Shown here: positions 48,964-64,000 of the stretch, one piece after another
How the letters are laid out: each line of letters opens with the position of its first letter
How positions within the stretch are numbered: position 1 is the first letter of the stretch
DNA from: a virus
Strand: one strand, 5' to 3'
Virus record (IMG/VR): IMGVR_UViG_3300019776_000296
Span: 3,762 to 67,761 of that record
Length of the DNA: 64,000 bases
Position numbers and translations under genes: made by a program
Notes under the pieces: generated by a model
The model's database searches: none
Told to the model about the DNA's origin: nothing
What the model saw: only the letters and a program-made list of their open reading frames with translations

Positions 48964-48971
48964 CCCCGGCG

Positions 48972-50051: not shown

Positions 50052-50082
50052 TTTAGTGGATTCCCTTCTCTTCCTTGTGTTT

Positions 50083-50190
50083 TGGTGCAAACCCTGCACC
50101 GGGGGTACTGCAACTGGCGACTGAGCCAGCAGGACACGGCACCGTGCTGTCACCACGGTGCCGTGCTACAACCCGCTCAGTCATACCCCC
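50083..50190 (-). ncRNA. Long-hairpin processing element LH2
   Basis: GACUGAGC...GCACGGCACCGUG/CACGGUGCCGUGU...GCUCAGUC, then a GGUGCA/UGCACC hairpin. Confidence 0.6.
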
Positions 50191-50255
50191 AATTTACAGA
50201 GGGGGTGAGTCTTGCTCAGACGAGCAACACTCAAGGGTTGTTGTGGGACAACGGA

Positions 50256-50888
50256 TTACGCCTCTTCGATGTTGTCGATGTTGTAATCCTCGTAGTACGA
50301 GATATCGATTTTGTCGTAGATGTAATCCGACAGGTTGTTGTCGATCTCTTCTCGCGCATTGTCTTCCGACGTTGCCTCGACTTCGACCTCAACAACGTAG
50401 GTGACGTTCACGACAGCAGTGAAAGATCGCTTAATCCCTTCCAGGCCAAGCTCTTCCATCACCTCGCTGAGTTCTTTGCGCTTGTCGTCATCATCCAAAT
50501 GGGTGACGGCCCACTCAGCGAGTGCATCCTGGGCATCTCGCTTGAAAGCGTTGAACTGATCTTCCAAGTTAGAGCACCTACGATTCGCGCTTTGGTAGCT
50601 GATCCGTTCTGCGCCAACAGCTTCCACGAGCAACTGGCTCACACCAGTCAGTGTCATGGGAGTGTTGGTGCTGTCCAAACGGATTCTCCAATCCGTTTCT
50701 TGATCAGCGCGAACTGGTTGCACCATCTTCGCGCTGCTGTTGAAGACGTAGGTCATAACGAGAGAGTTATGGGTGTCGGTCTTACCCGTCCAGATACCAA
50801 ACTCCTCTTCGCCCCTCCATGAGGTGCGAGCCAACTCGACTCCAGCGACAGCATTTTCGACCAGATTGGCGAAAGTGATTGTCTCCAC
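50256..50888 (-). CDS. Hypothetical protein with acidic C-terminus
   Basis: 210 aa; SD GAAGGGA; GTG start. Confidence 0.7.
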   Translation of the reverse strand: METITFANLVENAVAGVELARTSWRGEEEFGIWTGKTDTHNSLVMTYVFNSSAKMVQPVRADQETDWRIRLDSTNTPMTLTGVSQLLVEAVGAERISYQSANRRCSNLEDQFNAFKRDAQDALAEWAVTHLDDDDKRKELSEVMEELGLEGIKRSFTAVVNVTYVVEVEVEATSEDNAREEIDNNLSDYIYDKIDISYYEDYNIDNIEEA

Positions 50889-50940
50889 GGTGATTTCCCT
50901 TCATTGTGTGCCGCAATTGAACCCGCTTGCGGTGAGCGGT

Positions 50941-51014
50941 ACTGCTGTTGACTATCTGAGCCAACAAGAAAGCGACAGTGCGAAACATGCACTGCCGCAA
51001 TCCAATCGGTTCAG
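50941..51014 (-). ncRNA. Long-hairpin processing element LH3
   Basis: CUGAACCGAU...GCGGCAGUGC/GCACUGUCGC...UGUUGGCUCAG; the 3' arm can refold as UGUUGGCU/AGUCAACA. Confidence 0.55.
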
Positions 51015-51215
51015 CTAGCGGAGTCGATCACGGAACAGTGCGTGCCACCTGATCCACTCCTCTAAGCCTCTTGCATCCCACAACGGCATGCCATCGATGA
51101 CGCTATGCGTCGGCGGCGGCGTGCCATCGTAACGTCTGCGCCAGTTCGCAACTGCCGCAGGAGTAACACCCAGGACATCCGCGATATGGGCACCGCCCCA
51201 AAGCATTTCGCTCAT
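51015..51215 (-). CDS. Small HTH DNA-binding protein (excisionase/MerR-like)
   Basis: AHIADVLGVTPAAVANWRRR...P.P...PLW. Confidence 0.8.
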   Translation of the reverse strand: MSEMLWGGAHIADVLGVTPAAVANWRRRYDGTPPPTHSVIDGMPLWDARGLEEWIRWHALFRDRLR

Positions 51216-51439
51216 GGCTGCGCCCAACCAACACATCTGGTTGTTACCGGATTGCACTGCACCGGGCCGTTAGTCCACCCTCCGTAGTAGCCGGGGATAT
51301 TCCAGGTGTCCTGCAACTGCCCGTTCCACGGAGCAGGCTGACAGCCACTCTGGTTCATCACCCCCTGGCACGGAGAAGCAGAACTGACCGGCGCACAAAC
51401 AAACGCCAAAAGCATTGCAACACAAACGATTACACGCAT
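51212..51439 (-). CDS. Small secreted Cys-containing protein
   Basis: Signal peptide MRVIVCVAMLLAFVCAPVSSA; four Cys in the mature part. Confidence 0.65.
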   Translation of the reverse strand: MRVIVCVAMLLAFVCAPVSSASPCQGVMNQSGCQPAPWNGQLQDTWNIPGYYGGWTNGPVQCNPVTTRCVGWAQP

Positions 51440-51594
51440 CAGTAACCCACCTCATCAAGCAACGCTTCCGCTTTGCGGATCAGGTACTGGATCGCCTCAC
51501 GCTCGTCTGCGCTGTTCCCGTTGCGCGACATCTCCCTGACATCGTCAAGGGCTGTACGCAAAGAGATCAATGCATCTTCGCTGACTTCCTCCAT
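51439..51594 (-). CDS. Small hypothetical protein (51 aa, below ORF-track cutoff)
   Basis: MEEVSEDALISLR...; SD GGAAGGG; stop overlaps the next ATG. Confidence 0.6.
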   Translation of the reverse strand: MEEVSEDALISLRTALDDVREMSRNGNSADEREAIQYLIRKAEALLDEVGY

Positions 51595-51644
51595 GATCTT
51601 CCCTTCCAATTATGTTGCGCCACACCATGATTGGTATGACATCA

Positions 51645-51712
51645 ACGTGTGCCAACTGGGAGTCGAACCCAGAGCAATCAACCCGAAAGTTGTTGCAGCC
51701 CAATGCAAGCAC
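51645..51712 (-). ncRNA. tRNA-like element TLE2
   Basis: Imperfect GUGCUUG/UUGGCAC acceptor; CUGGG-UUCGACU-CCCAG; CAUUGGGC; tail ACGU. Confidence 0.72.
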
Positions 51713-51719
51713 CCAATGA

Positions 51720-52247
51720 CTAGACCCGACGCGGCTCAGCCGAATCGATCCAGTCCAACCGCCACGGGAACAAATCCCGGTAGCAGTCAGCGCACACATC
51801 AAACTTCACACGATGCGAGGCATGCGTGACGTAGATGATGTGGTCAACCTGTAACTCGTAACGATCACACGGATCGCACTTGTCACCACAGTTCATGCAG
51901 ACCAGGTAGTCGGCATCGAACTGAATTTCGTTGGGAGTCTTACTCATTCATTCACCTCCCTTCGACTTGATCATGTTGGCAACAGCCAGAGCCAGCTTCA
52001 CTGGCCCTTCCTTGACTGTCATCAGATGAAGACCTGACTCGTGGTCAATCCACCAATGCCCGTTGTCGGACAAGCGAATTCGGTGATCTGGATTCTCCAG
52101 GTCAGCCTCGCCACGATGAGCAGCACTCCACACCAGCAGCACCGGATCGCCAGTGCCACCGTTGTCACGCACCGGCCTGCAATACAGGCCATGCTGCTGA
52201 CGCAACAGATGGGTGGTGTTCATCAGGATGTTCAAATCGTTTCTCAT
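51720..52247 (-). CDS. Two hypothetical genes (51948-52247 and Cys-rich 51720-51947)
   Basis: SDs present; adjacent stop and start. Confidence 0.6.
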
Positions 52248-52293
52248 TGGTTCCCTTCCAATTGTGTTGCACCCCAACGGTGTTGGGGTATCA

Positions 52294-52362
52294 ACGTGTG
52301 CATGGTGGGAGTCGAACCCACAGCAAAAACTTTTGAAAGTCATTGCAGCCCAATGCATGCAC
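52294..52362 (-). ncRNA. tRNA-like element TLE3
   Basis: GUGCAUG/CAUGCAC; GUGGG-UUCGACU-CCCAC; CAUUGGGC; tail ACGU. Confidence 0.8.
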
Positions 52363-52368
52363 TACCAC

Positions 52369-52859
52369 CTAGTCGGGATCGCGACGAGGCGGCTCACCAG
52401 CCCACTCAGCAGGAGTCATGCTCCACCTCCACGCCAAAGGGTTAGGAGGCAGGTCACAGCCCTGCACAGGGCCAAGCCGTACCGCCTCATCCTGACAGGC
52501 AAGGCAGCACGGATTCCCTTGTGGGCCATACAGTCTCGCAAACAATGAATTCATCTTGCGAGCCATCAGTTGCTCCGCGAGGTGACTGCGTGATGGATCA
52601 GTTCAGCCAATCGCGTTGCGTCACACCAGTATCTGTGAACATCCTCCGCAGCACGCTGCTCGTAGCCGACGTGCATGATGCGAAAGCCATCGTCCAGGTC
52701 ATTGACGGCATCCCAGATGACTGCCGTCTCGTACTTGACCTTGGTGTCCACATACCAGGGAGGCAGAGCGATTGTCGAAACAGTCACTGTGCCAATGGAT
52801 TCCAGTTCAAACTCGTTGTGCCGAATCTTGACCGGCATAACGGATTCGTAATCAAACAT
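52369..52859 (-). CDS. Two coupled hypothetical genes (52566-52859, 52369-52566)
   Basis: SD GAAGGGAAG; TGATG coupling. Confidence 0.6.
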
Positions 52860-52899
52860 GGTGTGTGCTTCCCTTCACTGTGTTGTGTATTGCATTGCT

Positions 52900-53324
52900 G
52901 CACAACGGAATTCAATTCGGACAATCGAAAAGCCTTGGAAACTGTGAAGTTCCAAGGTTGTTATAACCCACTGCCGTCGCGAGACAGGGGGGGTCGGACT
53001 CACGAATCCGGCTTCCGGTATGGCAACCGTCAACCACAGGTCGAGGTGGGTAGGAAGCTGGGCTAACTACCCGCCCCGAATTGGTGACGGCAGACATAGT
53101 CCACCCCCTGGTTAGGTGGCCTAACTACCACCTGGAAGTAGACAGACTGATCCCCTAAATCGAATGGCGAAATTTTCGAATCCCGTTGCGCCGGTTGTCG
53201 ATTCAACCGTGACCGGGCACGCGCACCGCATGCCCAGACATGGACGAACCGAATCACGTTGTGCCACAAGAGAATTGAAATGTGGTGGGGCGCAACCACT
53301 TTCGCGGCACGCCCCACCACCACG
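52900..53324 (-). ncRNA. Candidate multi-stem structured RNA region
   Basis: ~425-nt gap with several strong stems and possible pseudoknots (see findings). Confidence 0.4.
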
Positions 53325-53525
53325 TCAGCACCTAGCGGTATCACCAGAGATGTTGTGCGACAACGCATTCCGTGTTACCGCCTGTGAAAGGTGGTGGCAC
53401 AGTTCATACGTTGCCTCATACAACGCTTCAGAAGTCGCGTCACCATCTGAGGTGACGTGAGCGTCAGCGTATCCCTGGTGGCATTCGATGGCACGATTGA
53501 GCGCATCGATGAGTGCCTGAGACAT
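53325..53525 (-). CDS. Hypothetical protein
   Basis: ACACAAGGGAGAGAAC leader. Confidence 0.65.
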   Translation of the reverse strand: MSQALIDALNRAIECHQGYADAHVTSDGDATSEALYEATYELCHHLSQAVTRNALSHNISGDTARC

Positions 53526-53565
53526 GTTCTCTCCCTTGTGTTTTCAACTGCCCCAACATGGGACA

Positions 53566-53634
53566 TGGTGTGCCGCAGTGGAATTGAACCACCGTCACCC
53601 TGAAGGGTGATACGCACCAATTGCGTTGCGGCAC
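53566..53634 (-). ncRNA. tRNA-like element TLE4 (cloverleaf, ACCA end)
   Basis: GUGCCGCA/UGCGGCAC; ACGCA-AUUGG-UGCGU; UCACCC-UUCA-GGGUGA; GUGG-UUCAAUU-CCAC; ACCA. Confidence 0.8.
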
Positions 53635-53641
53635 TACACGA

Positions 53642-54040
53642 TTACTTGGACTTCGACGGGTGGTAGTCGCCACCGTCCCAGTGACCGCGCTTCATCATGG
53701 CATCTGCCATGACCCGAATGACCTTGTGCGCCTTGACATTTCGCTTAACCAGGTGGCCTTCACCCTGGTTGTCCAGCGTGTAAACGTCATACCGTCCCGG
53801 TGCCACGTCAGTGACCACCAGGTCGAACACGCCGTCATAGTATTCACGCTGCGAAATGCCTTGCGTCACAACAACTTTGCCGCTCTTGCCGGGGATGCAT
53901 GCCCTGGAAAGTGTTGCGACAGTTGCGGTTTCGCCACGGAAGTCCGTCACCGTATCGCCGGGGAAGACCTGCTTGCCGGTCTTCTCGTTGAAGGCGAACA
54001 GAGCGGGACGCTTGACGAAAGTGATTGCGTTGCTTGCCAT
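53642..54040 (-). CDS. Hypothetical protein
   Basis: SD AGGGA; PGDTVTDFRGE motif. Confidence 0.65.
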   Translation of the reverse strand: MASNAITFVKRPALFAFNEKTGKQVFPGDTVTDFRGETATVATLSRACIPGKSGKVVVTQGISQREYYDGVFDLVVTDVAPGRYDVYTLDNQGEGHLVKRNVKAHKVIRVMADAMMKRGHWDGGDYHPSKSK

Positions 54041-54116
54041 TTCAGATTCCCTATCATGTGTTGTGTTGTGCCACACCAGGATTGGTGCAGCCTGCTCCAG
54101 CCGGATGGCCGGGGCA

Positions 54117-54180
54117 TTGTGGACTGTGGGACGTTTGAAGCCCTACCCCACAACAGCCGAAAGCTGTTGCGGCACAGTCC
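54117..54180 (-). ncRNA. tRNA-like element TLE5
   Basis: GGACUGUG/CACAGUCC; single long arm; GGGC-UUCAAAC-GUCC; ACAA. Confidence 0.75.
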
Positions 54181-54195
54181 ATTCGAGATGTAGTG

Positions 54196-54513
54196 CTAGA
54201 TGCGGTACTGGCTACCGGCTTCGAAATCGCCTGCCAGCCAACGGATTACGGTCTCCCGCTTACGGGCCGTCTTGCCGTCGAGCATCGTCCACTCGCCACC
54301 AGACCAGCGGTCTGCGCCGGATGGCCTGACGTGCAACCATGCGGCAGTGATGCCGCACCGGCTGCTGTAGACAACCGTCACCCGGTATCGCGCCAGCTTT
54401 GTGGTCTGGTCGAAGGTGACCTCCATGCCGCCACGGAATTCGGTTGTGTCCCAACCGTTTTCGTTGGCGGTGCTGTTGATCATGGCCGGGGTGAAGTTAG
54501 CCAATGCACTCAT
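54196..54513 (-). CDS. Hypothetical protein
   Basis: SD GGGAG before ATG at 54513. Confidence 0.65.
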   Translation of the reverse strand: MSALANFTPAMINSTANENGWDTTEFRGGMEVTFDQTTKLARYRVTVVYSSRCGITAAWLHVRPSGADRWSGGEWTMLDGKTARKRETVIRWLAGDFEAGSQYRI

Positions 54514-54571
54514 TTCTCTTGTCTCCCATGCGTTTTGAATCATCAACTGCCACACCGGAATTGGTGCGGCA

Positions 54572-54646
54572 TGGTGTGGCTGGAGGAATCGAACCTCACC
54601 AGCATGACGCTGGCACCTCACCCCAAACACGTTGGGGCGCAACCAC
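54572..54646 (-). ncRNA. tRNA-like element TLE6 (ACCA end)
   Basis: GUGGUUG/CAGCCAC; two internal arms; GAGG-UUCGAUU-CCUC; ACCA. Confidence 0.8.
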
Positions 54647-54656
54647 ATTCGAAGAG

Positions 54657-55379
54657 CTACTTGCTCTTCTTCTCCTTCTTCACGGAGAACAGCACAGACT
54701 TCCGACCGTAGATGCACAAACCGCAACGGGCACAAGCACTTCCGCGCTGATCGATCAGCGGCAGTGCCCCGTTATTCTCCGGACACCTTGTGGCACCAGG
54801 GAATTCGGCCTGAGCATCAGCGAAAGTCTCGCCAACGTAGGCGACGTTAATGCCTTGCGCCGCAAGGTGTTTCGCCGCTGTGATGTTGTCGCGGTCACCG
54901 CTGAAGTACAGCCCAAGGTTGGGCAGGTTCAGCTTGTGCAGGTACACGGCAGAACCGGGCACCCTGGTGTACACCCAGAACTGTGTGTCCTGGTGTGCCG
55001 CAACAACTTTCGACCAGGCAATCATGTAGTCGGTGCTGAAGAAGTCACCGTCCCAATGGATTCGGAAAAGCTTTGGCGCAGAACGCTTCTCGCATTCGGC
55101 CTCGAAATCCGTGATCATCTGGTCGAGCATGTCGAACATCTCGCTGCGTGAAATGCCTTGCAGTGCATCCCAATTGCGCTTCAGCAGTGCGGAGACTGCG
55201 GGGCGCAACCGTTCAAGCTTGCCTGCGTAGCAGATCAGCGCACAGAACGCGGTCTGTGCAATGCACGAGAACGCTTCACCGGAGGGGATGCCAAAGCTGT
55301 TGGCTACCAACGGCTTTGTGCCAGCCTTGTTCACGGCAGAAGCGACCTTAGTGTCATTACTGCGCTGGAGATTGGACAT
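54657..55379 (-). CDS. GP88-like (radical-SAM-like Cys cluster) protein
   Basis: SFGIPSG...C...C...CYA, FRIHWDGDFFS, FWVYTR, CARCGLC motifs. Confidence 0.75.
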   Translation of the reverse strand: MSNLQRSNDTKVASAVNKAGTKPLVANSFGIPSGEAFSCIAQTAFCALICYAGKLERLRPAVSALLKRNWDALQGISRSEMFDMLDQMITDFEAECEKRSAPKLFRIHWDGDFFSTDYMIAWSKVVAAHQDTQFWVYTRVPGSAVYLHKLNLPNLGLYFSGDRDNITAAKHLAAQGINVAYVGETFADAQAEFPGATRCPENNGALPLIDQRGSACARCGLCIYGRKSVLFSVKKEKKSK

Positions 55380-55439
55380 GTTGTCTTACCTCTTCCCTTG
55401 TGTGTATCTTCAACTGCCGCAACGGGATTCGTTACAGCA

Positions 55440-55497
55440 TGGTGTGCCGCAGAGGTTTCGAACCTCAGCGTCACGCTAGCCAAAAGGCTTGCGGCAC
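55440..55497 (-). ncRNA. tRNA-like element TLE7 (58-nt miniature cloverleaf, ACCA end)
   Basis: GUGCCGCA AGCC-UUUU-GGCU AGCG-UGA-CGCU GAGG-UUCGAAA-CCUC UGCGGCAC ACCA. Confidence 0.85.
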
Positions 55498-55509
55498 TAG
55501 TGGTTTGGC

Positions 55510-55836
55510 TTAGAGGTAGGTGAATTCGTAACGGATGCCACGAGATTCGGTGTCGTCCAAGCCGGTGTTGATGTAGAACTCGATCAGCCTGTCGTCATCG
55601 ATGGCAGCCGAAAAGTATTCGGCCACAGTGCTTTTCGTACCGGACAGGTAGTTCATGCACGTCCACAGCAGCGACTCGTAGTCGCTGGTGTAGCTGTGTT
55701 CGTAATACCTTGCGCCGCAATCGATGTCGATGCCACAGGCGAACTCTTGCATGGTCACGATGCCACGCCGCACGGTGTCGTGCAGCGCAACAACGTAGCC
55801 AAGGGCATCGTTGCCGTGAAGAATCTTTGTGATCAT
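55510..55836 (-). CDS. Hypothetical protein
   Basis: AAACACAAGGGAGAGAAC leader. Confidence 0.65.
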   Translation of the reverse strand: MITKILHGNDALGYVVALHDTVRRGIVTMQEFACGIDIDCGARYYEHSYTSDYESLLWTCMNYLSGTKSTVAEYFSAAIDDDRLIEFYINTGLDDTESRGIRYEFTYL

Positions 55837-55879
55837 CGTTCTCTCCCTTGTGTTTACAACCTGCACCCGGTCGGATGCA

Positions 55880-55960
55880 TTGTGCGACTGGAGGATTCGA
55901 ACCTCACCGCCACCAGGACGGCACCTCACTGCATCACGAGATGTGTTGCAGCGCAGTCGC
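55880..55960 (-). ncRNA. tRNA-like element TLE8
   Basis: GCGACUG/CAGUCGC; two arms with an AGGU linker as in TLE6; GAGG-UUCGAAU-CCUC; ACAA. Confidence 0.8.
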
Positions 55961-55967
55961 TTTCGAG

Positions 55968-56210
55968 CTAGACCACCTTGCCGTTACGGATGTTGGCGTA
56001 CCACTTGCGGTTCGTCCACGGGTTCGGCCCGACGATCACGTCAGACGACGTGAGTTGCGGGTCATCGATGCCGTAGAACGTGCCGCGATTGTTGATCGCC
56101 GACGTGTCTTCCAGACGCACGGAATCCGGTGCGTAGCTTACGAATTCGCGGAATGCCTTCTTGCTTGCGAACTCGCCGCCGGATGCGTCGGTAGCGTAAA
56201 GGTTTGACAT
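55968..56210 (-). CDS. Hypothetical protein
   Basis: SD GGGAG; SKKAFRE...VGPNPW..RKWYA motif. Confidence 0.7.
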   Translation of the reverse strand: MSNLYATDASGGEFASKKAFREFVSYAPDSVRLEDTSAINNRGTFYGIDDPQLTSSDVIVGPNPWTNRKWYANIRNGKVV

Positions 56211-56231
56211 GGTATCTCCCAATTGTGTTGC

Positions 56232-56314
56232 GCCACATACCGTGTGGCCCGGCCTGCCCAGTAAGGCAAGGACACAGCCAGACGAATCTGGCTGTGCCCC
56301 AACGTCACTGGACG
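56232..56314 (-). ncRNA. Long-hairpin processing element LH4
   Basis: CCAGUGA-CGUUG-GGGCACAGCCAGA-UUCG-UCUGGCUGUGUCC-UUGCC-UUACUGG. Confidence 0.7.
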
Positions 56315-56554
56315 TTACTTGCGTCGGAGAACAGGGTTGACGTTAGGCACATGTGCCACAACGATTTTCAGCTCCACGCAATACCCTTCAGGGCAAAGGG
56401 ATTGCATGTGGTCAACAGCGTTGCGAATGTGTAATGCGGTGTCGCGCTGCCGTTTTGCCACGCCGGTCATACCCTCACGCTCAGCCCGGTCTGCCTCGCA
56501 TTCAAATGCGACGACAGTGTCCATCGAATTGATGTGGATTGAGTACTCAGACAT
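56315..56554 (-). CDS. Hypothetical protein
   Basis: SD GGGAG before ATG at 56554. Confidence 0.65.
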   Translation of the reverse strand: MSEYSIHINSMDTVVAFECEADRAEREGMTGVAKRQRDTALHIRNAVDHMQSLCPEGYCVELKIVVAHVPNVNPVLRRK

Positions 56555-56601
56555 GTTGTCTCCCAATGTGATTCACTACTGCGCTACCAGGTAGCAGCGC
56601 A

Positions 56602-56667
56602 TGGTGGGTTGCCGGGGATCGAACCCGTCACAGTGTGAGCCGCCCGTAATACGTTGCGACACAACCC
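56602..56667 (-). ncRNA. tRNA-like element TLE9 (ACCA end)
   Basis: GGGUUGU/GCAACCC; CGGG-UUCGAUC-CCCG; ACCA. Confidence 0.78.
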
Positions 56668-56673
56668 ATTTTG

Positions 56674-56832
56674 TTACCGGCGTGCCCAGTCGAGCCACCA
56701 CAAGGTGGCCCACGAGTACGGCCCGATAAGCAGGACGAACAGTGCGCCGTTCCAGATCACAGCGAGGTTGGCAAGGCCAACGAACGCCGTAATGGCAAGC
56801 AGCACAACAAGTATCAACTTGAGTGTGTTCAT
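56674..56832 (-). CDS. Small membrane protein (52 aa, below ORF-track cutoff)
   Basis: MNTLKLILVVLLAITAFVGLANLAVIW...; SD GGAG. Confidence 0.6.
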   Translation of the reverse strand: MNTLKLILVVLLAITAFVGLANLAVIWNGALFVLLIGPYSWATLWWLDWARR

Positions 56833-56875
56833 CTTTCGTTTCTCCATCCTTACTGCTGCACCGTGATTCGATGCA

Positions 56876-56932
56876 TGGTGCTACTGCGGGAGTCGAACCC
56901 TTGCCGCCCGTAATACGTTGCGGCACAGTAGC
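56876..56932 (-). ncRNA. tRNA-like element TLE10 (ACCA end)
   Basis: GCUACUG/CAGUAGC; one arm UGCCGC/GCGGCA; GGG-UUCGACU-CCC; ACCA. Confidence 0.78.
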
Positions 56933-56940
56933 TTTCGAGA

Positions 56941-57240
56941 TTAGACGAGATCGTGGTGCAGGTACTCTTCGTCGTGCCCTTCACCGTCGAGGAACTGAAC
57001 CCGAATGCGGGTATCGATGGTCACCTTGCGGCTGTCGAGCAGGCTGAAAAGCGTTGCGGCACAGTCACTGTCGAGGTGGCTCTGGAAGATGACCCACTCA
57101 CGGTTGAAGTAGGCGATCTCGTGGTATTGCGTTGCCCCGTAACGTGATTCGGGGCTGCCTACCTGAATGAAGCTGTGCGACAACGCACGCTCCACACCAT
57201 CGACCACGACAGTTCCTGTGCTGATCTGTGTTGCCTTCAT
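56941..57240 (-). CDS. Hypothetical protein
   Basis: SD GGGAG before ATG at 57240. Confidence 0.65.
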   Translation of the reverse strand: MKATQISTGTVVVDGVERALSHSFIQVGSPESRYGATQYHEIAYFNREWVIFQSHLDSDCAATLFSLLDSRKVTIDTRIRVQFLDGEGHDEEYLHHDLV

Positions 57241-57261
57241 CTCTTGTCTCCCAACTACTTT

Positions 57262-57352
57262 CGCTGCATGCCGTGCAGCACGGTCTGCCAATGAGGCAAG
57301 GACACAGGCAGGTACATTGCTGTAACTGCCTGTGCCCCAACGCCATTGGACG
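57262..57352 (-). ncRNA. Long-hairpin processing element LH5
   Basis: CCAAUGG-CGUUG-GGGCACAGGCAG...CUGCCUGUGUCC-UUGCC-UCAUUGG; covaries with LH4. Confidence 0.7.
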
Positions 57353-57592
57353 TTAGAGATAGCTTGCGGAGTAGACGAACCCGTCGCTGAACGCATCACC
57401 GGCGACCTTGCCATGCTTGCGTTCGTAGTTCTGTTCGTCGCGCTCCAGGTCATACCCGTCACGCCACGCCGCATTCACACCAGCTTTGAAGTGCCGCAAC
57501 AGGTTTCGGTCTTCCAGGTACTGGGCGTAGCCGCCGTCGTCACCGGGGAATTCCTCCAGCATGCGCTGCACATCTGCGATTGTGTATGCCAT
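57353..57592 (-). CDS. Hypothetical protein
   Basis: ACACAAAGGGAG leader. Confidence 0.65.
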   Translation of the reverse strand: MAYTIADVQRMLEEFPGDDGGYAQYLEDRNLLRHFKAGVNAAWRDGYDLERDEQNYERKHGKVAGDAFSDGFVYSASYL

Positions 57593-57614
57593 TTCCGTTA
57601 TCTCCCTTTGTGTT

Positions 57615-57683
57615 TGGCTTGTCTCTTCAGTGGGTAGGTAGCCAACCTGTCCCAGACCCGTTGCAACGCAACGGGTTTCGACA
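57615..57683 (-). ncRNA. Type II hammerhead ribozyme HH1 (canonical core, GUC site)
   Basis: UGUC GAAA CCCGUUGC-GUU-GCAACGGG UC|UGGG..AGGU-UGGCU-ACCU..CCCA CUGAAGA GACA AGCCA; loop I UGGCU pairs with the 3' AGCCA. Confidence 0.92.
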
Positions 57684-57687
57684 TTAT

Positions 57688-57975
57688 CTAGTGGCCGCAA
57701 TCCTCAGCGGGTTGCAGCCAGACGCTCACCATGTCGCGGTGGATGCCCTCCGTGCTGCCGTTGTCAACCGTCAACATGCCGTTGACGAAAAGGCTTGCAC
57801 TGGAAGGGATTCCGAACATCTCCAGCACCGTGGTGACAACGTCATTGGCAGACATGGCCTGTCCCGCAACGCCGCCAATGATGAAGGACGGCGTGTCGAG
57901 AATGGTTTTCTGCCAACCGTTTTCGATCACGGTGCGAAGGATGCCCACGACATGGTTTCCGTAGTAAGTGGTCAT
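57688..57975 (-). CDS. Hypothetical protein
   Basis: CACAAAGGGAGAGAAC leader. Confidence 0.65.
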   Translation of the reverse strand: MTTYYGNHVVGILRTVIENGWQKTILDTPSFIIGGVAGQAMSANDVVTTVLEMFGIPSSASLFVNGMLTVDNGSTEGIHRDMVSVWLQPAEDCGH

Positions 57976-57997
57976 TTCTGTTCTCTCCCTTTGTGAT

Positions 57998-58066
57998 TGG
58001 CTTGTCTCGTCAGTACGGCGGGAGCCACCCAACCGCAGTCCCGGTGCGTTGCACCGGGATTCGACA
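57998..58066 (-). ncRNA. Type II hammerhead ribozyme HH2 (variant U15.1-A16.1, GAC site)
   Basis: UGUC GAAU CCCGGUGC-AAC-GCACCGGG AC|UGCGG-U-UGGG-UGGCU-CCCG-CCGUA CUGACGA GACA AGCCA. Confidence 0.85.
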
Positions 58067-58070
58067 GCTA

Positions 58071-58400
58071 CTAGCTGTAGTAGCGTCCGACCACAACCCG
58101 CTCGTAATCCGGTGTGGTGCAACCGAATTCGATGGGCCACCGCACCAGGACACCGCTGAAGAACGAGTCGGTCTGGATGCCGTCCCAACGCTGCAACGAA
58201 TCCGGCACGCCAGCCGCGAAATGCGTTGGCACATAGCTGAATTCGTTCACGTCGTAGAAGCTGCCCAGGTACTGGAAGATACGCGGCGAGAAACGATCCT
58301 CGCCCTCGACGTAGTCGAACCAGTGCTGCTCAGCGACCGGCACCTGATCAACCGAAATCAGTTCGCGGGGAACATTATTGGTGATGATGGTGATGGACAT
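58071..58400 (-). CDS. Hypothetical protein
   Basis: ACACAAAGGGAGAGAAC leader; WDGIQTDSFFSGVLV motif. Confidence 0.7.
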   Translation of the reverse strand: MSITIITNNVPRELISVDQVPVAEQHWFDYVEGEDRFSPRIFQYLGSFYDVNEFSYVPTHFAAGVPDSLQRWDGIQTDSFFSGVLVRWPIEFGCTTPDYERVVVGRYYS

Positions 58401-58447
58401 TGTTCTCTCCCTTTGTGTTTGGGTCTGCCTCACCGGACGGTGAAGCA

Positions 58448-58505
58448 TTGTGCGACTGCGGGATTCGAACCCACGCTGCCCGGTAATGCGTTGCAGCACA
58501 GTCGC
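58448..58505 (-). ncRNA. tRNA-like element TLE11
   Basis: GCGACUG/CAGUCGC; arm UGCUGC/GCAGCG; UGGG-UUCGAAU-CCCG; ACAA. Confidence 0.78.
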
Positions 58506-58512
58506 TTTCGAT

Positions 58513-58836
58513 CTAGGCCGAACGTGTCACCAGGTACAGCCTGCCCTGGTGGCGCGAGGTGGTGACGGAGTACTTAACCGGCGGGATTGTCCACTGCCCG
58601 TTGGCATGCCACGCAATTGGCGTGGCGTAGCTGTAGACAGCGAAGAAATCCGTTGCCGCAGAAGCGGTTTCGAAGTCGCCGTGGTACTCGTCAGGCAGCT
58701 TGCCGACGCTGGTCGGATGCGACCAACCACCACCAGTGAAGATGGGGCGAGTCGAACCGAAAACCGTTCCGTTGCAATTGAATTCGCGACGGTCACGGAT
58801 CAGCGTGGGGATGCTGCTGAGGGTTGCCTTGATCAT
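58513..58836 (-). CDS. Hypothetical protein
   Basis: SD GGGAGG; VYSYATPIAW...YSVTTSRHQ motif. Confidence 0.7.
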   Translation of the reverse strand: MIKATLSSIPTLIRDRREFNCNGTVFGSTRPIFTGGGWSHPTSVGKLPDEYHGDFETASAATDFFAVYSYATPIAWHANGQWTIPPVKYSVTTSRHQGRLYLVTRSA

Positions 58837-58858
58837 TTCTCTTACCTCCCAATAGGTT

Positions 58859-58927
58859 TGGCTTGTCTCGTCAGTACGCCGGGAGCCACCCGAACGTAGT
58901 CCCGTTGCTAGGCAACGGGATTCGACA
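58859..58927 (-). ncRNA. Type II hammerhead ribozyme HH3 (variant U15.1-A16.1, GAC site)
   Basis: UGUC GAAU CCCGUUGC-CUA-GCAACGGG AC|UACG-UU-CGGG-UGGCU-CCCG-G-CGUA CUGACGA GACA AGCCA. Confidence 0.85.
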
Positions 58928-58929
58928 AA

Positions 58930-59334
58930 CTAGTCGAGCTTCAGATCAGCGGGGAACGTGAACCCGCCGACATCACTCAAGCAGTCGGACATGAAGATCA
59001 GCGAGTCGAGGTCATCGAAGTCGGGATGGTCACTGAAGTCGAAATCGATTATCTCGCTTACGTTTTCGCCATCCGTGCTGTACCAGAAGTCATCGTCGCG
59101 GTCTGCTGTGGCGAGGTCGATATCCTGTTGGATACCTTGCATCTCATCCATTGCCGCGACGAAAGCCTCTGTGTGAGCAGTGATTTCGTTCTCGTCAACG
59201 TCGATCTCGTCTTCCTTGTAACCAACCAGCGTGACCAGTTCTTCGATGGCGAAGATTGCCGCCTGAAGGGCTGTCTCCCAACGCATTTCAGCAGTTGCTG
59301 GCATGCCGTTGATGTAGCCGCTGTTGTTGATCAT
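58930..59334 (-). CDS. Highly acidic protein (possible DNA mimic)
   Basis: 134 aa with 34 D/E versus 4 K/R by hand count; SD GGGAG. Confidence 0.7.
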   Translation of the reverse strand: MINNSGYINGMPATAEMRWETALQAAIFAIEELVTLVGYKEDEIDVDENEITAHTEAFVAAMDEMQGIQQDIDLATADRDDDFWYSTDGENVSEIIDFDFSDHPDFDDLDSLIFMSDCLSDVGGFTFPADLKLD

Positions 59335-59389
59335 GTTGTCTCCCAATGTGTTACACGGAACCGCCGTGCCGGTCTGCCTCAGTGAGGCA

Positions 59390-59449
59390 ACGTGGACTGT
59401 GGGACGTTCGAAGCCCTACTCCCCAACGAATTACGTTGGGGCACAGTCC
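59390..59449 (-). ncRNA. tRNA-like element TLE12
   Basis: GGACUGUG/CACAGUCC; CCCCAACG/CGUUGGGG arm; GGGC-UUCGAAC-GUCC; ACGU. Confidence 0.78.
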
Positions 59450-59461
59450 CTTTTGAACTAG

Positions 59462-59788
59462 TCAGCACCTAGCGTCGTGCCAGCCTTGAGCGAGTTTCTC
59501 TGCTGCCGCAAGGGTTTTCACCGTGCGCTGGTGCAGAATGATTGTCTTGCCGTGATGCTTGCCTGCCACCTTGTTCTGACGGCGGCGTGCCTGTCGTCCG
59601 TACCGTGCATTCGGATCACCGAAATGCGCTGTGAGAGAGCGACTTTGGAGGTACTCACGGGCAGCCTTGGGGTCGCTGATACGTTCCAGCACGGTGAATG
59701 TCTCACCGCAGTAGATGATGTAATCGACGTTGTGCCCCTTGGCATCTCGCACAATGCCCTGGACGCGCCAGTTCAATGTGTTTGACAT
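59462..59788 (-). CDS. Hypothetical basic protein (first clear gene of the leftward region)
   Basis: AAACACAAAGGGAGAGAAC leader before ATG at 59788. Confidence 0.65.
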   Translation of the reverse strand: MSNTLNWRVQGIVRDAKGHNVDYIIYCGETFTVLERISDPKAAREYLQSRSLTAHFGDPNARYGRQARRRQNKVAGKHHGKTIILHQRTVKTLAAAEKLAQGWHDARC

Positions 59789-59820
59789 GTGTTCTCTCCC
59801 TTTGTGTTTGGGGTGGTTAC

Positions 59821-59897
59821 CTGCCGGGTAGCAGGACAGGAAACAGGGTGCATTGCTGCACCCTGTATCCCGCTCAGACACCCGAAAGTGCCCGAAA
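59821..59897 (-). ncRNA. Long-hairpin element LH6
   Basis: GCGGGA-U-ACAGGGUGCA-GCAA-UGCACCCUGU-U-UCCUGU, then UGCU-ACCC-GGCAG. Confidence 0.5.
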
Positions 59898-62142
59898 CAC
59901 AATGGAATTGGGAAAGAGAGTACGCAGACAACATGAACCCGCCGCCAGTGGTATCACCGCACCTAAGCAAGCGTTTGGGAGAGCATGACGTACCGGCAGT
60001 TCAGCGGTTATCTGCGTTCGAATCACCTTGTCGCACACGGCTTTTGCTACTGCGCCTACTTAAACCAGCGGGTACAAACTTGCTGGCACCACGTTGCGTT
60101 GCAACGGGTTTCGGGTATCTGCCAAGCAGCTACTTACCTGGGTGATTCTCTCTGTTTTGGATTGCCTGCCAACGCTTTTGGGCGTTCTGGGCTGATTCGC
60201 TGGAAGAGGCGGGCTGCATGTACTCGTAGTATCTCCCGTTGGGAGACTTGCGAATTCAAGACCTAGCGTCTCAGTCACTTTGTCTCGCTTAACCTTTCCC
60301 ACTCCGTCCAGGTCAATCGACAATGTGCTGAAACATTCGGCACCGCACTGTAGATCTACTTCCGCACCGCCAGAATGCGACTGGCGCAACGCACGTCGAA
60401 ATCCCGTGCGTGCCTGCCGTGATTGTCCTGCCCCATGCCGCCTTCGACGTGATGCCGCGTGCGGGTGGATGGCCGGGTCTGCCGGTCTGGGTGCTGCTCC
60501 GCTGATTCAATCACGCCAGCACCCTGGTAGCAAGCACCCTATTTCCGCAGGTCAGAGGGTGTTTTTGAAACCTAATTTCGGGCACGTCAGATACGAAATC
60601 GTGAAAAGCGTTGGTAACAAACAACTTTCGAGTCCTAGCCGAACGCCCACCAGGACGAACGCCAACCCTGTTAGACACCCATATGAAACACGTTGCACCG
60701 CAAAGGATGTCGCTGGTTTGGCGCTAATCAGTGCAGGTCAAAGCGGTACTTGCATTGTGAAGCAACACATTTTGCCTGGTCACATCCCGTAGCAAACATA
60801 ATTCGGCACACCGCGGCTCTGGCGCCCCTTGAATCGGCGCAGGTCAACCAGGGTGAGCGACGAAACTCTGAGAATATCCGGCTAACTTGCGACCAGCACA
60901 CTTAATTTGTTTGCTGGTCGCACTTCCGAAATCGGACAATTGCCTGGTCACATACGGTGTGGGGTATTCGGCCAGCTAATTTTTACCCGTGCGTCAACCG
61001 TCGAGTGACATTGCGCCACAACAACTTTCGTCAGCGGTGCCCGATTGGGCTAATTTCTTAGGAAGTTTGCTGGGTAAATTTTCCACGAGTTTCCTAGCAA
61101 AATGCCAGCAAATTTTTGATAGAAACGGACATGTGTTGTGGCACAACAGATTTCGAGCGTCTACTCGCACAAATTGGTGCCGACACGCCGTGTCCAGCAA
61201 ACTTTAAGTTACCGAACGCTGATCGGCCAATCTGAAAGTGACTGTGCGCCAATGGATTTCGGAGATAGTTAGCACATCTCACTATGTGTGATTGTTGAAT
61301 CCGCAACATCTAGCTGGCCTAACAAAGGTAAGCCTTACCTAACCTGCTACCAACTGGTTGGTTGGATACGTCACTAAACCGACTAATGGTACAACCGTTG
61401 TGCCGCAACAACATTCGACCAAACATGCCACCTCAGCACGCCGAAAGTTGTTGTCTCCCTTTGTGACGGCACAACCCCCTATACCTAGCTGTACTAATCA
61501 CTTCTGTAACATCCGACCCCCGAAAAGTTTGCCCGAAACGCAAACACTTTCAAACACCCATTGGGGCACAACAACTTTCGCGACGTGACCAGGGAAAAGA
61601 AAGTTCTTGCGGATGCAACAATGTTTGCTAGACCACCCGAAACCCACCAAACCACCCCCGCGAAAAGCGTTGCGGCACAACAACACCATTTCAAAGTTGG
61701 CCGCTACCAACACATTTCAAAACACGCCTCGACGGCCACCAGGTCACCAGGACACGCCACCACGAGATGCGTTGCGCCACAACAACCCACAAAACACGCC
61801 CCGAACGAAACCCGTTGCGGCACAACAAAGCCGACAACCTCGAAACCGTGAAAACTGTTGCGTGCCAACAACTTAATAACCCACTCCCGGCCACCAGGTC
61901 GGCCCAAACATGGCCTGCCCCAACGCCATGCCATCCGCACCACCAGGACAGGCCACTACCGGCACCGTTCCCAATGGAATTCCCGGCCACCACCAACAAC
62001 ATTGCGCCGCAACGTAACTCGCCGCAGCCCGGTTGAATTGCGGCACGCCGCAACGGAATTCACCGCCACCTCAGACCCGCATCTCAGACCGCCGTCGCGG
62101 CCACCAGGTAGCACCGTCTCGCACAGTTTCGGAAGGCCATCC

Positions 62143-63533
62143 GAAACCTGTTGTGCCACAACAGATTTCAGCCACAATCGATGAATCACGTTCTGCCACA
62201 ACAACACTCACCAAACACACCACAACGGCGGCACGGCGGCACCAGGCGGCACCAGGCGAACACACCGCACCACACCCAACGAAACACGTTGCGCCACAAC
62301 ACATTTCACGCACCGCAGACGAAACCCGTTCTGCCCCAACACAATTCGCACAACGGCACCACACCGCACCACGGGGCAGCCGGTGAATGTGCAACGCACC
62401 TCAGACGAAACACGTTGCCCCGCAACACAATTCACACCACCAGAACCGAAACCCGTTCTGCCACAACACAATTCACGCACCACATCACGACACCACCAGG
62501 CCGCACCGTGGCACCGTCACACCACACCAGAACCGAAACACATTGCGGCACAACACAATTCACACACCAGGAAACGAAACCTGTTCTGCCACAACGGAAT
62601 TCACACCACACCACACACCAGACCGGCATGCCCAACCAGGCCGCACAATCCAAACCTGTTGTGCCCCAACACAATTCACACCACAGCACACCAAACACGT
62701 TGTGCCACAACACATTTCGTTGCACACCAGGCACCACACCGCATGCCACACCACACCACGCATGCCGAAATCCATTGCGCCGCAACACATCTCGCACACC
62801 ACTACCGAAACCTGTTGTGCCACAACGGAATTCATGCACCACGTCGCACCGTGACGACACCACCAGGATGGCCGGATATCGCCGTGATACCGAAACACGT
62901 TGCGCCGCAACGCATCCCATTCACACCATGCCCAAACACGTTGTGCCACAACGCAATTCGGCACCACGACAACGCACCACAACGCACCACAACAGACCGC
63001 AGAACACGAGATGCGTTGCGCTACAACAGGACTCGATTAATGCCGTCTCAAATCGCTTGTGCCACAACAGATTTCGGCATGCCACAACGGCACCGTGAGA
63101 CGTGCTGTAGGCCAATTACGTTGCGCTACAACGCATCTCACAATCACGCATCGAAACACGTTGCGAGACAACAGGATTCACTCACGACAACGCACCTCAG
63201 ACCATGCCGAAAACAGGCCAGAACGTGAGATGTCGCATGGCACAACGCATCTCGAATAACCCACAACCAAACACGTTGTGCCACAACAGATTTCGACCAT
63301 CCCAGAACTGGCACAACCGTCTCAAACATGAGTGAGACAACCGTACCGAAATAGCCGAAATCCGTTGTGCGACAACGCATCTCACAACGTGCGACGTGAG
63401 ATCGATTGTGCGACAACGAAATAGCTCAAAATGACCTGTTTTCGCAGTGTGTTTTCGCAGTACTCGAAATGCGTTGTGCCACAACAGATTTCGCCTCTCA
63501 GAACGTGAATCCTGTTGTGCGCCAACAGGTTTC
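62143..63533. repeat. Phased array of 24 palindromes (GAAANNN)GTTGYGNCRCAAC(NNNTTTC) in 12 pairs
   Basis: Cores read by hand from 62150 to 63514 with 40-41 bp spacing within each pair; looser copies extend back to about 61010. Confidence 0.9.
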
Positions 63534-63564
63534 GTTAAATGGTTGAATTTCGAAATTCGACCCT

Positions 63565-63609
63565 AATGTTGACACGAATTACATCCTCAATGTTGACGCA
63601 AATTACATC
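63565..63609 (+). repeat. Tandem direct repeat AATGTTGACRCRAATTACATC x2
   Basis: Copies at 63565 and 63589 (24-bp period). Confidence 0.75.
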
Positions 63610-64000
63610 GATCGTTGCAAGCGAAACTATCCTCTAGCAAACCAAGCAACTGCTTGGTTACCCCACTTAGGACACCCTAACTTAAATGCAATGCTTATGA
63701 AACCATCATCACAAACATGCAGGTCAAACATGGTTTACGTTTACCCAGGTAAACACACTGGCTCTGACCTGCGGAAACAGCCCTCATTTAGCGACATATT
63801 GAGAGTCCTTAGACCAAGTGCTAGCAGAGTTAGCACAATTTGCTGGGATTCAGCAAACCCAATCACAAACGGGTAACGAAACGCTCTGACCTGCGGAAAT
63901 ACAACGATGTTGTTTCGGATTCAACCAATATGTTTGCACTGGTAGTTAGCTAGGGGGTCACCCGCGACGGCACGACACGCGGGACACTTCAGCGGAATGC

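What the first reader, a model, noticed from the sequence alone, without database searches (positions are those of the whole stretch)
57615..58927. Three type II pseudoknotted hammerhead ribozymes within 1.3 kb, each just after a stop codon
Seen: each has stem II UGUC/GACA, GAA, an 8-bp stem III, a stem I hairpin with loop UGGCU, the CUGANGA core, and a 3' AGCCA that can pair with loop I. Stems I and III covary between copies (CCCGUUGC/GCAACGGG versus CCCGGUGC/GCACCGGG; UGGG/CCCA versus UACG/CGUA). Each starts 2-4 nt after a UAG. Predicted cuts lie 3' of the C at 57655, 58038 and 58899, about 62 nt before the next AUG in all three. Established: this matches the type II hammerhead topology, and cleavage leaves a 5'-OH, a poor substrate for 5'-monophosphate-stimulated RNase E/J decay.
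Basis: partly seen in the sequence, partly recalled or inferred. Interest (0 to 1): 0.85.

Follow-up and report, generated by a model that had tools for sequence, protein, structure and literature searches.

The report
Three hammerhead ribozymes between phage genes
Three self-cutting hammerhead RNA motifs of an already known type sit between small genes of an uncultured phage, most likely to chop one long message into single-gene messages; the unusual part is that tRNA-shaped elements fill the same position between neighbouring genes.

Summary
Three 72-nt elements (58927-58856, 58066-57995, 57683-57612) have the type II hammerhead core, a 9-bp stem III, a closed stem I, an open 4-bp stem II and a 5-bp pseudoknot between loop I and the 3' tail. 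Each lies 2-4 nt after a UAG. Each predicted cut is exactly 62 nt before the next AUG.

A generic descriptor finds only these three sites in the window and none in 100 shuffles. A model built from them finds 121 relatives in 80 viral contigs, with strong covariation. 14 of 35 relatives checked pass Rfam's Hammerhead_II threshold. The window's own copies do not (26.7 bits, 25.9 bits and no hit; threshold 37).

This is a new member of a known kind. Perreault et al. 2011 described type II pseudoknot hammerheads clustered around single prophage genes. This scan has also noted such arrays on other DNA (e.g. e1-6061571).

Three caveats apply:
- Cleavage is untested.
- Copies A and B carry a flipped U15.1-A16.1 pair, which is reported to cleave slowly.

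The most interesting point is the context. At least 11 tRNA-like elements occupy equivalent slots in the same operon.

The parts
58856..58927 (-). Hammerhead A (type II). Stem II 58927-58924 pairs with 58867-58864. Predicted cut is 3' of C17 at 58899. CUGACGA lies at 58874-58868 and the pseudoknot tail AGCCA at 58863-58859. It carries the flipped U15.1-A16.1 pair.
   Evidence: RF02276 score 26.7 bits. Descriptor hit. R1 score 98.8 bits, but it is one of the model's own training sequences.
57995..58066 (-). Hammerhead B (type II). Predicted cut is 3' of C17 at 58038. It carries the flipped U15.1-A16.1 pair.
   Evidence: RF02276 score 25.9 bits. Descriptor hit.
57612..57683 (-). Hammerhead C (type II). 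It has the canonical A15.1-U16.1 pair. Predicted cut is 3' of C17 at 57655.
   Evidence: Descriptor hit. No RF02276 hit. Its nearest relative is L028:8041-8112, at 96 bits with R1.
58930..59334 (-). Upstream gene of 134 aa, acidic. It ends in UAG 2 nt before hammerhead A.
   Evidence: No Pfam or PHROG family.
58513..58836 (-). Gene of 107 aa between hammerhead A and a tRNA-like element.
   Evidence: phrog_32689, E 2.5e-14. Start preceded by GGGAGG.
58452..58505 (-). tRNA-like element (acceptor stem plus T-arm). It occupies the same stop-to-SD slot between two genes that the hammerheads occupy elsewhere.
   Evidence: RF00005 score 16.8 bits. Descriptor hit. Fold z-score -3.4. ARAGORN calls no tRNA.
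58071..58400 (-). Gene of 109 aa. It ends in UAG UAG 4 nt before hammerhead B.
   Evidence: Weak match to phrog_21085.
57688..57975 (-). Gene of 95 aa, flanked on both sides by hammerheads B and C.
   Evidence: phrog_28867, E 2.2e-13..
57353..57592 (-). Gene of 79 aa downstream of hammerhead C.
   Evidence: No family found.
57593..57611 (-). Leader with a Shine-Dalgarno sequence (ACAAAGGGAGA...). The equivalent leaders lie at 57976-57994 and 58837-58855. The same leader type follows the tRNA-like elements.

Best explanation
The three elements are cis-acting type II hammerhead ribozymes in a leftward operon of small genes. The phage is an uncultured siphovirus related to phages of Actinobacteria.

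Proposed mechanism:
1. As the polycistronic RNA is made, stem III (9 bp) and stem I fold.
2. Once CUGANGA, the 4-nt stem II strand and the AGCCA tail emerge, the loop I-tail pseudoknot aligns stems I and II. The RNA then cuts itself 3' of C17.
3. Stem II is only 4 bp, so the halves separate.
4. The upstream message ends a few nucleotides after its stop codon in a GC-rich stem III hairpin with a 2',3'-cyclic phosphate.
5. The downstream message begins with a 5'-OH at the first paired nucleotide of stem I and carries a 62-nt leader with an exposed SD.

The result would be single-gene messages with structured ends, whose stability and translation are uncoupled from their neighbours. Copies A and B (U15.1-A16.1) probably cut more slowly than C.

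Shown here: sequence, fold, covariation, and gene-boundary placement across the family. Inferred: cleavage itself, co-transcription, and the effect on stability.
For: - **Core and topology.** All three copies have the core and three-way junction. The generic descriptor gives 3 hits in the window against 0 in 100 shuffles.
- **RF02276 hits for A and B.** E 8.5e-5 and 1.4e-4 over the 67.8-kb record.
- **Family.** The 17-nt 3' motif occurs in 115 viral-contig stretches. I passed 80 of these 115 to model R1, which found 121 full-length matches in them plus the 3 in the window.
- **Covariation.** Over 97 distinct rows, 95.6% of cells pair, against 28-49% when partners are slid. 24 of 26 pairs change on both sides. 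The pseudoknot helix is 91.9% paired, with 4 of its 5 pairs changing on both sides. The alignment was fitted to the model, which favours it.
- **Link to Rfam.** 14 of 35 R1 matches in 12 loci pass Rfam's Hammerhead_II threshold.
- **Placement across the family.** In 88 of 101 distinct contexts, a frame open for at least 40 codons (or running to the locus end) closes within 20 nt upstream of G12. In 96 of 101, an ORF starts 39-112 nt after the cut (median 59).
- **Co-transcription.** No promoter-like or terminator-like site lies between 60145 and 56800.
- **Predicted products.** The upstream products end in stable hairpins (z -2.7 to -4.4). Stem I is kept at +1 in the folds of A and C.
- **Same slot, other device.** 11 tRNA-like elements lie on the same strand, 0 on the other, with a shuffle mean of 0.34 and maximum of 2. 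This points to RNA cutting as the function of the slot.
Against: - No experiment or RNA data are available. No RNA run holds the stretch.
- None of the copies passes Rfam's gathering score, and C gets no Rfam hit at all.
- A and B break the A15.1-U16.1 rule. Among 97 distinct family rows the counts are AU 94, UA 2 (both from this window) and other 1. No other viral contig with this 3' motif has GAAU (0 hits).
- I found no orthologous locus, so positional conservation could not be tested.
- The three cultured relatives I searched (Kumao, Rey, Nanosmite) have no such element.
- The promoter scan covers sigma-70-type sites only, and the host is unknown.
- The 5'-OH may attract RNase J rather than repel it.
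Confidence: 0.7

Rival explanations
1. Only copy C is an active ribozyme. Copies A and B, with the flipped 15.1-16.1 pair, are effectively dead and persist as structured intergenic hairpins. They might serve as 3'-end protectors or as sites for a host RNase.
For: The U15.1-A16.1 variant gave low activity in Perreault 2011 (section 8). The flip is found in no other member of the sampled family. A and B score below Rfam's threshold.
Against: After the flip, A and B diverged at 17 of 92 aligned positions. Even so, every other core nucleotide, stem II and the pseudoknot stayed intact, and stems I and III changed only by pair-preserving substitutions. With two sequences this is weak evidence: by my own estimate, the chance that 12 core positions stay unchanged at that divergence is about 0.09. 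The one tested natural U-A variant did cleave.
Confidence: 0.2
2. The conserved hammerhead-plus-leader modules mainly act as repeated DNA linkers. Recombination at them would shuffle small early-gene cassettes between and within phages, and RNA cleavage would be secondary.
For: The modules are 75-82% identical, while the flanking 100 nt are at background (48-54%) and the flanked proteins are unrelated. The closest hammerheads (L028, 6 copies, up to 96 bits) lie in a complete 52-kb phage whose genes gave no tblastn match to the 14 window proteins tested.
Against: This does not explain the family-wide conservation of the catalytic core and pseudoknot with compensatory change. It also does not explain tRNA-like elements in the same slots. 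It is compatible with the best explanation rather than opposed to it.
Confidence: 0.07
3. Paired cuts produce an RNA with a 5'-OH and a 2',3'-cyclic phosphate, which a host RtcB-type ligase circularises or splices. The candidate is the 383-nt piece between the B and C cuts that carries the 95-aa gene.
For: The geometry allows it: the gene at 57975-57688 lies between two cut sites. Perreault 2011 raised this possibility.
Against: Perreault 2011 states they could not detect spliced or circular products. Nothing in the sequence brings the two ends together.
Confidence: 0.03

Closest known systems
Type II hammerhead ribozymes with a loop I / 3'-tail pseudoknot (Rfam RF02276; Perreault et al. 2011, PMC3088659)
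   Same: The order of elements matches: stem II strand, GAA(A), stem III hairpin, H17, stem I hairpin, CUGANGA, stem II strand, tail. The pseudoknot is the same, down to the consensus UGG...GCC / AGCCA letters (alignment). Phage context is shared. The window's copies form one continuum with members that pass Rfam's threshold.
   Different: Stem II is 4 bp and stem III 9 bp, both longer than the Rfam consensus. The scores are below the gathering threshold. Two copies have the 15.1-16.1 pair flipped.
Clustered hammerheads flanking single genes in prophages of Agrobacterium tumefaciens, Azorhizobium caulinodans and Clostridium scindens (Perreault et al. 2011, passages read)
   Same: Several hammerheads lie within 1-2 kb on one strand and bracket single small genes. 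One bracketed gene there is ardA; here the gene before copy A encodes an acidic protein. The proposed role is the same: cutting a polycistronic phage RNA.
   Different: Here the host lineage is probably actinobacterial. The hammerheads alternate with tRNA-like elements and long hairpins in otherwise identical slots. I did not find that mixture described in four literature searches.
Natural U15.1-A16.1 hammerhead variant (Perreault et al. 2011, section 8)
   Same: The same swap of the most conserved stem III pair, with the rest of the core intact.
   Different: Here the swap is in two of three copies in one operon, beside a canonical copy. That arrangement allows a direct internal comparison of rates.
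tRNA punctuation of mitochondrial transcripts, and RNase III processing of T7 early mRNA
   Same: It works like these: structured RNA between cistrons directs endonucleolytic separation of a long transcript into single messages with defined ends.
   Different: In those systems the cutting enzyme is a host or organelle protein or RNase P. Here three of the slots cut themselves.

Membership tests
Hammerhead ribozyme, type II (RF02276) | Core strand C3-U4-G5-A6-N7-G8-A9 and G12-A13-A14 | tested here: met
   CUGACGA (A, B) and CUGAAGA (C), with GAA in all three.
Hammerhead ribozyme, type II (RF02276) | A15.1-U16.1 pair followed by H17 (not G) | tested here: not met
   Copy C has A-U plus C17 and meets the feature. 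Copies A and B have U-A plus C17 and do not. Across the family the counts are AU 94, UA 2 and other 1 of 97 rows. The literature admits such variants only when activity has been measured (methods passage).
Hammerhead ribozyme, type II (RF02276) | Three-way junction with stems I and III closed by loops and stem II open | tested here: met
   The minimum-free-energy folds give this for all three. The descriptor also hits all three.
Hammerhead ribozyme, type II (RF02276) | Pseudoknot of at least 4 bp between loop I and the nucleotides just 3' of stem II | tested here: met
   UGGCU pairs with AGCCA (5 bp) in all three. Across the family this helix is 91.9% paired, and 4 of its 5 pairs change on both sides.
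Hammerhead ribozyme, type II (RF02276) | Score at or above Rfam's gathering threshold (37 bits) | tested here: not met
   A scores 26.7 and B 25.9. C gives no hit at E <= 10, even in a 106-nt search. 14 of 35 relatives in 12 loci do pass.
Hammerhead ribozyme, type II (RF02276) | Mg2+-dependent self-cleavage 3' of H17, giving a 2',3'-cyclic phosphate and a 5'-OH | not testable with these tools
   No RNA run holds the stretch. This needs a bench assay.
Clustered gene-flanking hammerheads of phages and prophages (Perreault 2011) | Several hammerheads on the coding strand within a few kb, in gaps between genes of one transcript | tested here: inconclusive
   The placement is met: 3 copies in 1.3 kb, each between a stop codon and an SD. 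Co-transcription is only suggested, by the absence of promoter-like or terminator-like sites.
Intrinsic transcription terminator | GC-rich hairpin followed by a U tract | tested here: not met
   0 terminator-like sites in 56800-60200, against a shuffle mean of 3.5. Stem III is followed by C and stem I, not by U residues.

The most novel reading that the evidence does not exclude
This phage runs a 'punctuated' early operon. Self-cleaving hammerheads and minimal tRNA mimics (presumed RNase P/Z substrates) would be interchangeable cutting devices placed in the same slot: stop codon, device, AC-rich leader, SD. If so, the biological job of bacterial and phage hammerheads would be message separation as such. 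The flipped U15.1-A16.1 copies would be slower cutters that set different ratios of joined to separated messages.
Probability: 0.4. Interest if true: 0.75.

Novelty: new member of a known kind. Interest (0 to 1): 0.42.

Why it matters
A 2019 review still lists what hammerheads do in bacteria and phages as unresolved (PMC6765202, passage read). These three copies add little as ribozymes. Their setting is what makes them useful.

- **One operon offers a natural comparison.** The operon contains a canonical copy, two core-flipped copies and at least 11 tRNA-like elements. All sit in equivalent slots with near-identical leaders.
- **The function becomes testable.** The arrangement argues that cutting itself is what is selected. 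Testing this needs only simple swap constructs.
- **A database blind spot.** Rfam's threshold misses much of this long-stem-III sub-family (21 of 35 relatives checked, plus all three copies here). Phage hammerheads are therefore under-annotated.

Tried and rejected
- **RNA evidence.** The look-up of sequencing runs listed no RNA holder, only three DNA runs with small shares.
- **Orthologous loci.**
  - The 95-aa gene gave no relative in viral contigs or metagenome contigs.
  - The 107-aa gene gave one 38%-identical relative (L121). Its 72.9-kb record has no R1 match, and my descriptor found no tRNA-like element in the locus.
- **Named phages.**
  - blastn of 57000-60000 and of hammerhead C plus its leader found nothing.
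  - Kumao, Rey and Nanosmite have no R1 match.
- **Protein families.** Pfam found no family for the five flanking proteins. PHROGs gave only families of unknown function.
- **Other ribozyme classes.** The Rfam E-value scan of 46500-64000 showed no twister, pistol, hatchet or HDV-like match.
- **tRNA-like slots as disguised hammerheads.** I considered this because UCGAA precedes several of them. I rejected it because no CUGANGA follows.
- **An anti-SD switch.** CUCCC of stem I pairs with the SD in the fold of product B. This appears in one of three folds only, and the z-scores are not significant, so I did not pursue it.
- **Chance occurrence.** Rejected.
- **Terminator reading.** Rejected.
- **Supplements.** The supplementary figures of Perreault 2011 (S1, S2, S6) could not be opened. 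They may show which sequence carried the U15.1-A16.1 variant and how fast it cleaved.
Full report
**Where and what.**

The window is bases 3762-67761 of a 67.8-kb IMG/VR virus record with a CheckV completeness of 84%. All features of this finding are on the minus strand. The three 72-nt elements are:
- A: 58927-58856
- B: 58066-57995
- C: 57683-57612

Each reads 5' to 3' as follows:
- UGUC, then GAA.
- A 9-bp stem III with a 3-nt loop, then C17.
- A stem I of 8-9 pairs with one bulge, closed by the loop UGGCU.
- CUGACGA (A, B) or CUGAAGA (C), then GACA and AGCCA.

UGUC pairs with GACA to form an open 4-bp stem II. AGCCA is complementary to loop I. This is the order that defines a type II hammerhead.

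- The stop codons are UAG at 58932-58930, 58073-58071 (followed by a second UAG) and 57690-57688. The elements begin 2, 4 and 4 nt later.
- C17 lies at 58899, 58038 and 57655.
- The next AUGs are at 58836, 57975 and 57592, which gives a 62-nt leader in all three.
- The quoted covariations are present.

**More than chance.**
- A descriptor not built from these copies required CUGANGA, at least 3 Watson-Crick pairs of stem II, GAA, stems III and I of at least 4 pairs, and H17 not G. It finds exactly these three sites in the 64-kb window. It finds none on the plus strand and none in 100 dinucleotide shuffles.
- Minimum-free-energy folding of each element alone returns the three-way junction.
- Rfam's Hammerhead_II model hits A (26.7 bits) and B (25.9 bits). 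E is about 1e-4 for this family over the whole record and about 0.01 against all families in 1.8 kb.
- Both scores are below the 37-bit gathering score, so the default scan reports nothing.
- Copy C is not hit even when only 106 nt are searched. This happens although C has the more canonical core. My reading of the alignment is that the Rfam model expects a different loop I arrangement.

**Family.**
- The 17-nt 3' motif (CUGANGA, stem II strand and tail) occurs in 115 stretches of IMG/VR contigs.
- I built a covariance model from the three copies. I searched the window plus 80 of those 115 loci and got 124 matches at E <= 0.01. Three are in the window and 121 elsewhere, with up to 7 per locus.
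- The whole record holds no further full copy.
- On the 97 distinct rows, 95.6% of cells form standard pairs, against 28-49% when the 3' partners are slid by 1-3 columns. 24 of 26 pairs change on both sides, and 0 of 500 shuffles reach any observed measure.
- The pseudoknot helix is 91.9% paired. Four of its five pairs show double changes, in copies whose tails differ from the search pattern.
- Two caveats apply. The alignment was fitted to the model. Most rows were also selected by a pattern that fixes the tail.
- In 12 of the loci, 14 of 35 model matches pass Rfam's gathering score for Hammerhead_II. The window's copies therefore belong to the known family, in a sub-group with a long stem III that Rfam under-detects.

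**Placement is a family property.**
- In 88 of 101 distinct contexts, a frame open for at least 40 codons (or running to the locus end) closes within 20 nt upstream of G12, mostly 2-8 nt upstream.
- In 96 of 101 contexts, an ORF of at least 40 codons (or at least 15 if cut by the locus end) starts 39-112 nt after the cut, with a median of 59 nt.
- My start finder takes the first ATG, GTG or TTG, so some distances are too short.
- The printed flanks show an SD directly after the tail in most cases.

The layout 'stop codon, hammerhead, SD, AUG' is thus typical and not special to this phage.

**The three copies are one module.**
- Hammerhead plus leader is 75-82% identical between copies. The 100 nt on either side are at background (48-54%), and the flanked proteins are unrelated.
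- The exact 62-nt spacing is therefore inherited with the module.
- Two flanked genes are real phage genes: phrog_32689 (E 2.5e-14) and phrog_28867 (E 2.2e-13).
- Pfam finds nothing in any of the five flanking proteins.

**The core deviation.**
- Copies A and B have U15.1-A16.1, while C has A15.1-U16.1.
- Among the 97 family rows the pair is AU 94 times, UA twice (both from this window) and other once.
- A scan of IMG/VR for the same 3' motif preceded by GUCGAAU found no other case.
- Perreault et al. 2011 (section 8 read) report that a natural U15.1-A16.1 hammerhead self-cleaves 'albeit less efficiently'. They attribute this to loss of an A15.1-G5 contact. They also note that wild type is at least 10-fold more active than 15.1/16.1 mutants.
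- Both sides of the pair are changed in A and B, so the helix is kept. The rest of the core and the pseudoknot are intact, although A and B differ at 17 of 92 aligned positions.
- I read A and B as slower cutters rather than dead copies, but this is inference.

**Context.**
- The phage is a siphovirus. It has an SPP1-type portal, a P22-like coat, a 2334-aa tape measure with an amidase domain, a DnaB helicase, GP88 and DUF932.
- Its portal is 65% identical to that of Mycobacterium phage Kumao. The organism tally of the 848 matching records lists only actinobacterial host genera, apart from 2 records named only 'Bacteriophage' and 1 not itemised.
- GP88 is 60% identical to that of Mycobacterium phage Gail.
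- The host is probably an actinobacterium. The window's G+C of 54.5% is lower than I recall for mycobacteria, and the host is otherwise unknown.
- Between 60145 and 56800 there is no sigma-70-like promoter and no terminator-like hairpin, against a shuffle mean of 3.5 terminators. This fits one long transcript.

**The same slot holds other devices.**
- Weak Rfam tRNA-type hits all lie on the minus strand, and ARAGORN calls no tRNA.
- I then applied a simple descriptor: a 7-bp acceptor stem, a 3-5-bp T-stem, a UUCRANN loop, and the acceptor 3' strand directly after the T-stem.
- It finds 11 tRNA-like elements on the minus strand between 59448 and 48901. It finds 0 on the plus strand, with a shuffle mean of 0.34 and a maximum of 2.
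- A twelfth, seen by eye before the gene starting at 51594, is missed by the descriptor.
- Each lies between a stop codon and the same AC-rich leader and SD that follow the hammerheads. One (58505-58452) sits between hammerheads A and B.
- Their anticodon regions, where I inspected them, are stems capped by short loops, so they cannot decode. This is my reading.
- In the 80 other hammerhead-bearing loci the descriptor gives 32 hits in 712 kb, and only 5 are on the hammerhead strand. All 5 are 84-102 nt long, and one coincides with an Rfam tmRNA match. The mixture of devices therefore seems specific to this phage.
- That elements resembling RNase P substrates replace hammerheads in identical slots is the best available argument that cutting the RNA is the function of the slot.

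**Mechanism and what the ends imply.**
- After cleavage, the upstream RNA ends in the stem III hairpin. Folds of the last 62-66 nt give z-scores of -2.7 to -4.4.
- The downstream RNA starts with stem I at nucleotide +1. This is kept in the folds of A and C. In B an alternative pairing with the SD appears, but it is not significant.
A review passage citing Collins et al. 2007 states that the 5'-OH of the glmS ribozyme product is what makes it a substrate of RNase J1 (PMC3328962).
- From recall, actinobacteria encode both RNase E and RNase J. Any protection is therefore more plausibly due to the paired 5' end than to the 5'-OH.

**Comparison with the literature.**

Perreault et al. 2011 (PMC3088659; passages, section 8) described the following:
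- type II hammerheads;
- the loop I to 3'-tail pseudoknot;
[quoted passage not shown] - the idea that long phage transcripts are processed into single-gene mRNAs.

A 2019 review still calls the purpose undefined (PMC6765202).

Four searches found no paper describing hammerheads and tRNA-like elements sharing slots in one phage operon. The library is incomplete, so this is not proof of absence.

Notes of this scan report hammerhead arrays in many other phage genomes. 188 notes in at least 177 genomes match the words I searched, for example e1-6061571.

**Verdict.**

These are real, well-formed type II pseudoknot hammerheads. They are new members of a known kind, placed as the family usually is. 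Interest in the ribozymes alone is low to moderate. It is raised by the two core-flipped copies next to a canonical one, and by the tRNA-like elements in equivalent slots. Together these make the function of phage hammerheads testable in one small operon.

Noticed in passing
window 59448-59395, 58505-58452, 56931-56881, 56667-56606, 55960-55884, 55496-55445, 54646-54576, 54179-54122, 53634-53570, 52362-52298, 48963-48901 (all minus strand): Eleven minimal tRNA-like elements (acceptor stem plus T-arm, 51-77 nt) sit between stop codons and SD leaders. There are none on the plus strand, and shuffles give a mean of 0.34. Several end in ACCA. ARAGORN calls none of them. A twelfth, seen by eye before the gene starting at 51594, is missed by the descriptor.
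   Followed up: partly
window 60041-60116 (-): This may be a decayed fourth hammerhead. It keeps CGAAA plus a stem III almost identical to that of copy C, followed by a stem I-like hairpin. The CUGANGA strand is mutated. R1 gives only 12.8 bits (E 0.54). It lies just downstream of the only promoter-like site in the region (60172-60145).
   Followed up: partly
window, 5' flanks of the tRNA-like elements at 58505, 56931, 55960, 54646 and 54179 (59448 has UUCAAAAG instead): UCGAA(A/U) lies directly 5' of the acceptor stem in five of the tRNA-like slots. It echoes the GUCGAA of the hammerheads and is complementary to the UUCGA of the T-loops. I have no explanation for it.
   Followed up: no
window 47000-64000: CGCAACG on the minus strand is about six times more frequent here than in the rest of the window (1.06 against 0.17 per kb). 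It occurs in stem III of copies A and C, in the relic at 60103, and in the D-region of many tRNA-like elements.
   Followed up: partly
window 57353-57241 (-): The slot after the 79-aa gene holds neither a hammerhead nor a tRNA-like element. It holds a long imperfect hairpin and a second short hairpin before the SD, which makes a third kind of slot filler.
   Followed up: no
window 58930-59334, 58513-58836, 58071-58400, 57688-57975 (-): Four consecutive genes end in C-UAG, yet CTAG is strongly under-represented in the window (77 seen against about 246 expected from base composition).
   Followed up: no
L028 (complete 52.4-kb viral record with terminal repeats): It holds six hammerheads of the same long-stem-III sub-type, up to 96 bits with R1. 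They precede genes that gave no tblastn match to the 14 window proteins I tested. All six share a different leader (GAUUGGAGACA).
   Followed up: partly
L039:4383-4641 (+) and L062:13474-13575 (+): A group I intron (71.2 bits) and a short tmRNA-like match (61.6 bits) lie in two of the hammerhead-bearing viral contigs.
   Followed up: no
window 57955-58037 (-): In the predicted product of copy B, the CUCCC of stem I pairs with the GGGAG of the SD in the minimum-free-energy fold. The z-score is not significant, and the pairing does not appear in A or C.
   Followed up: no
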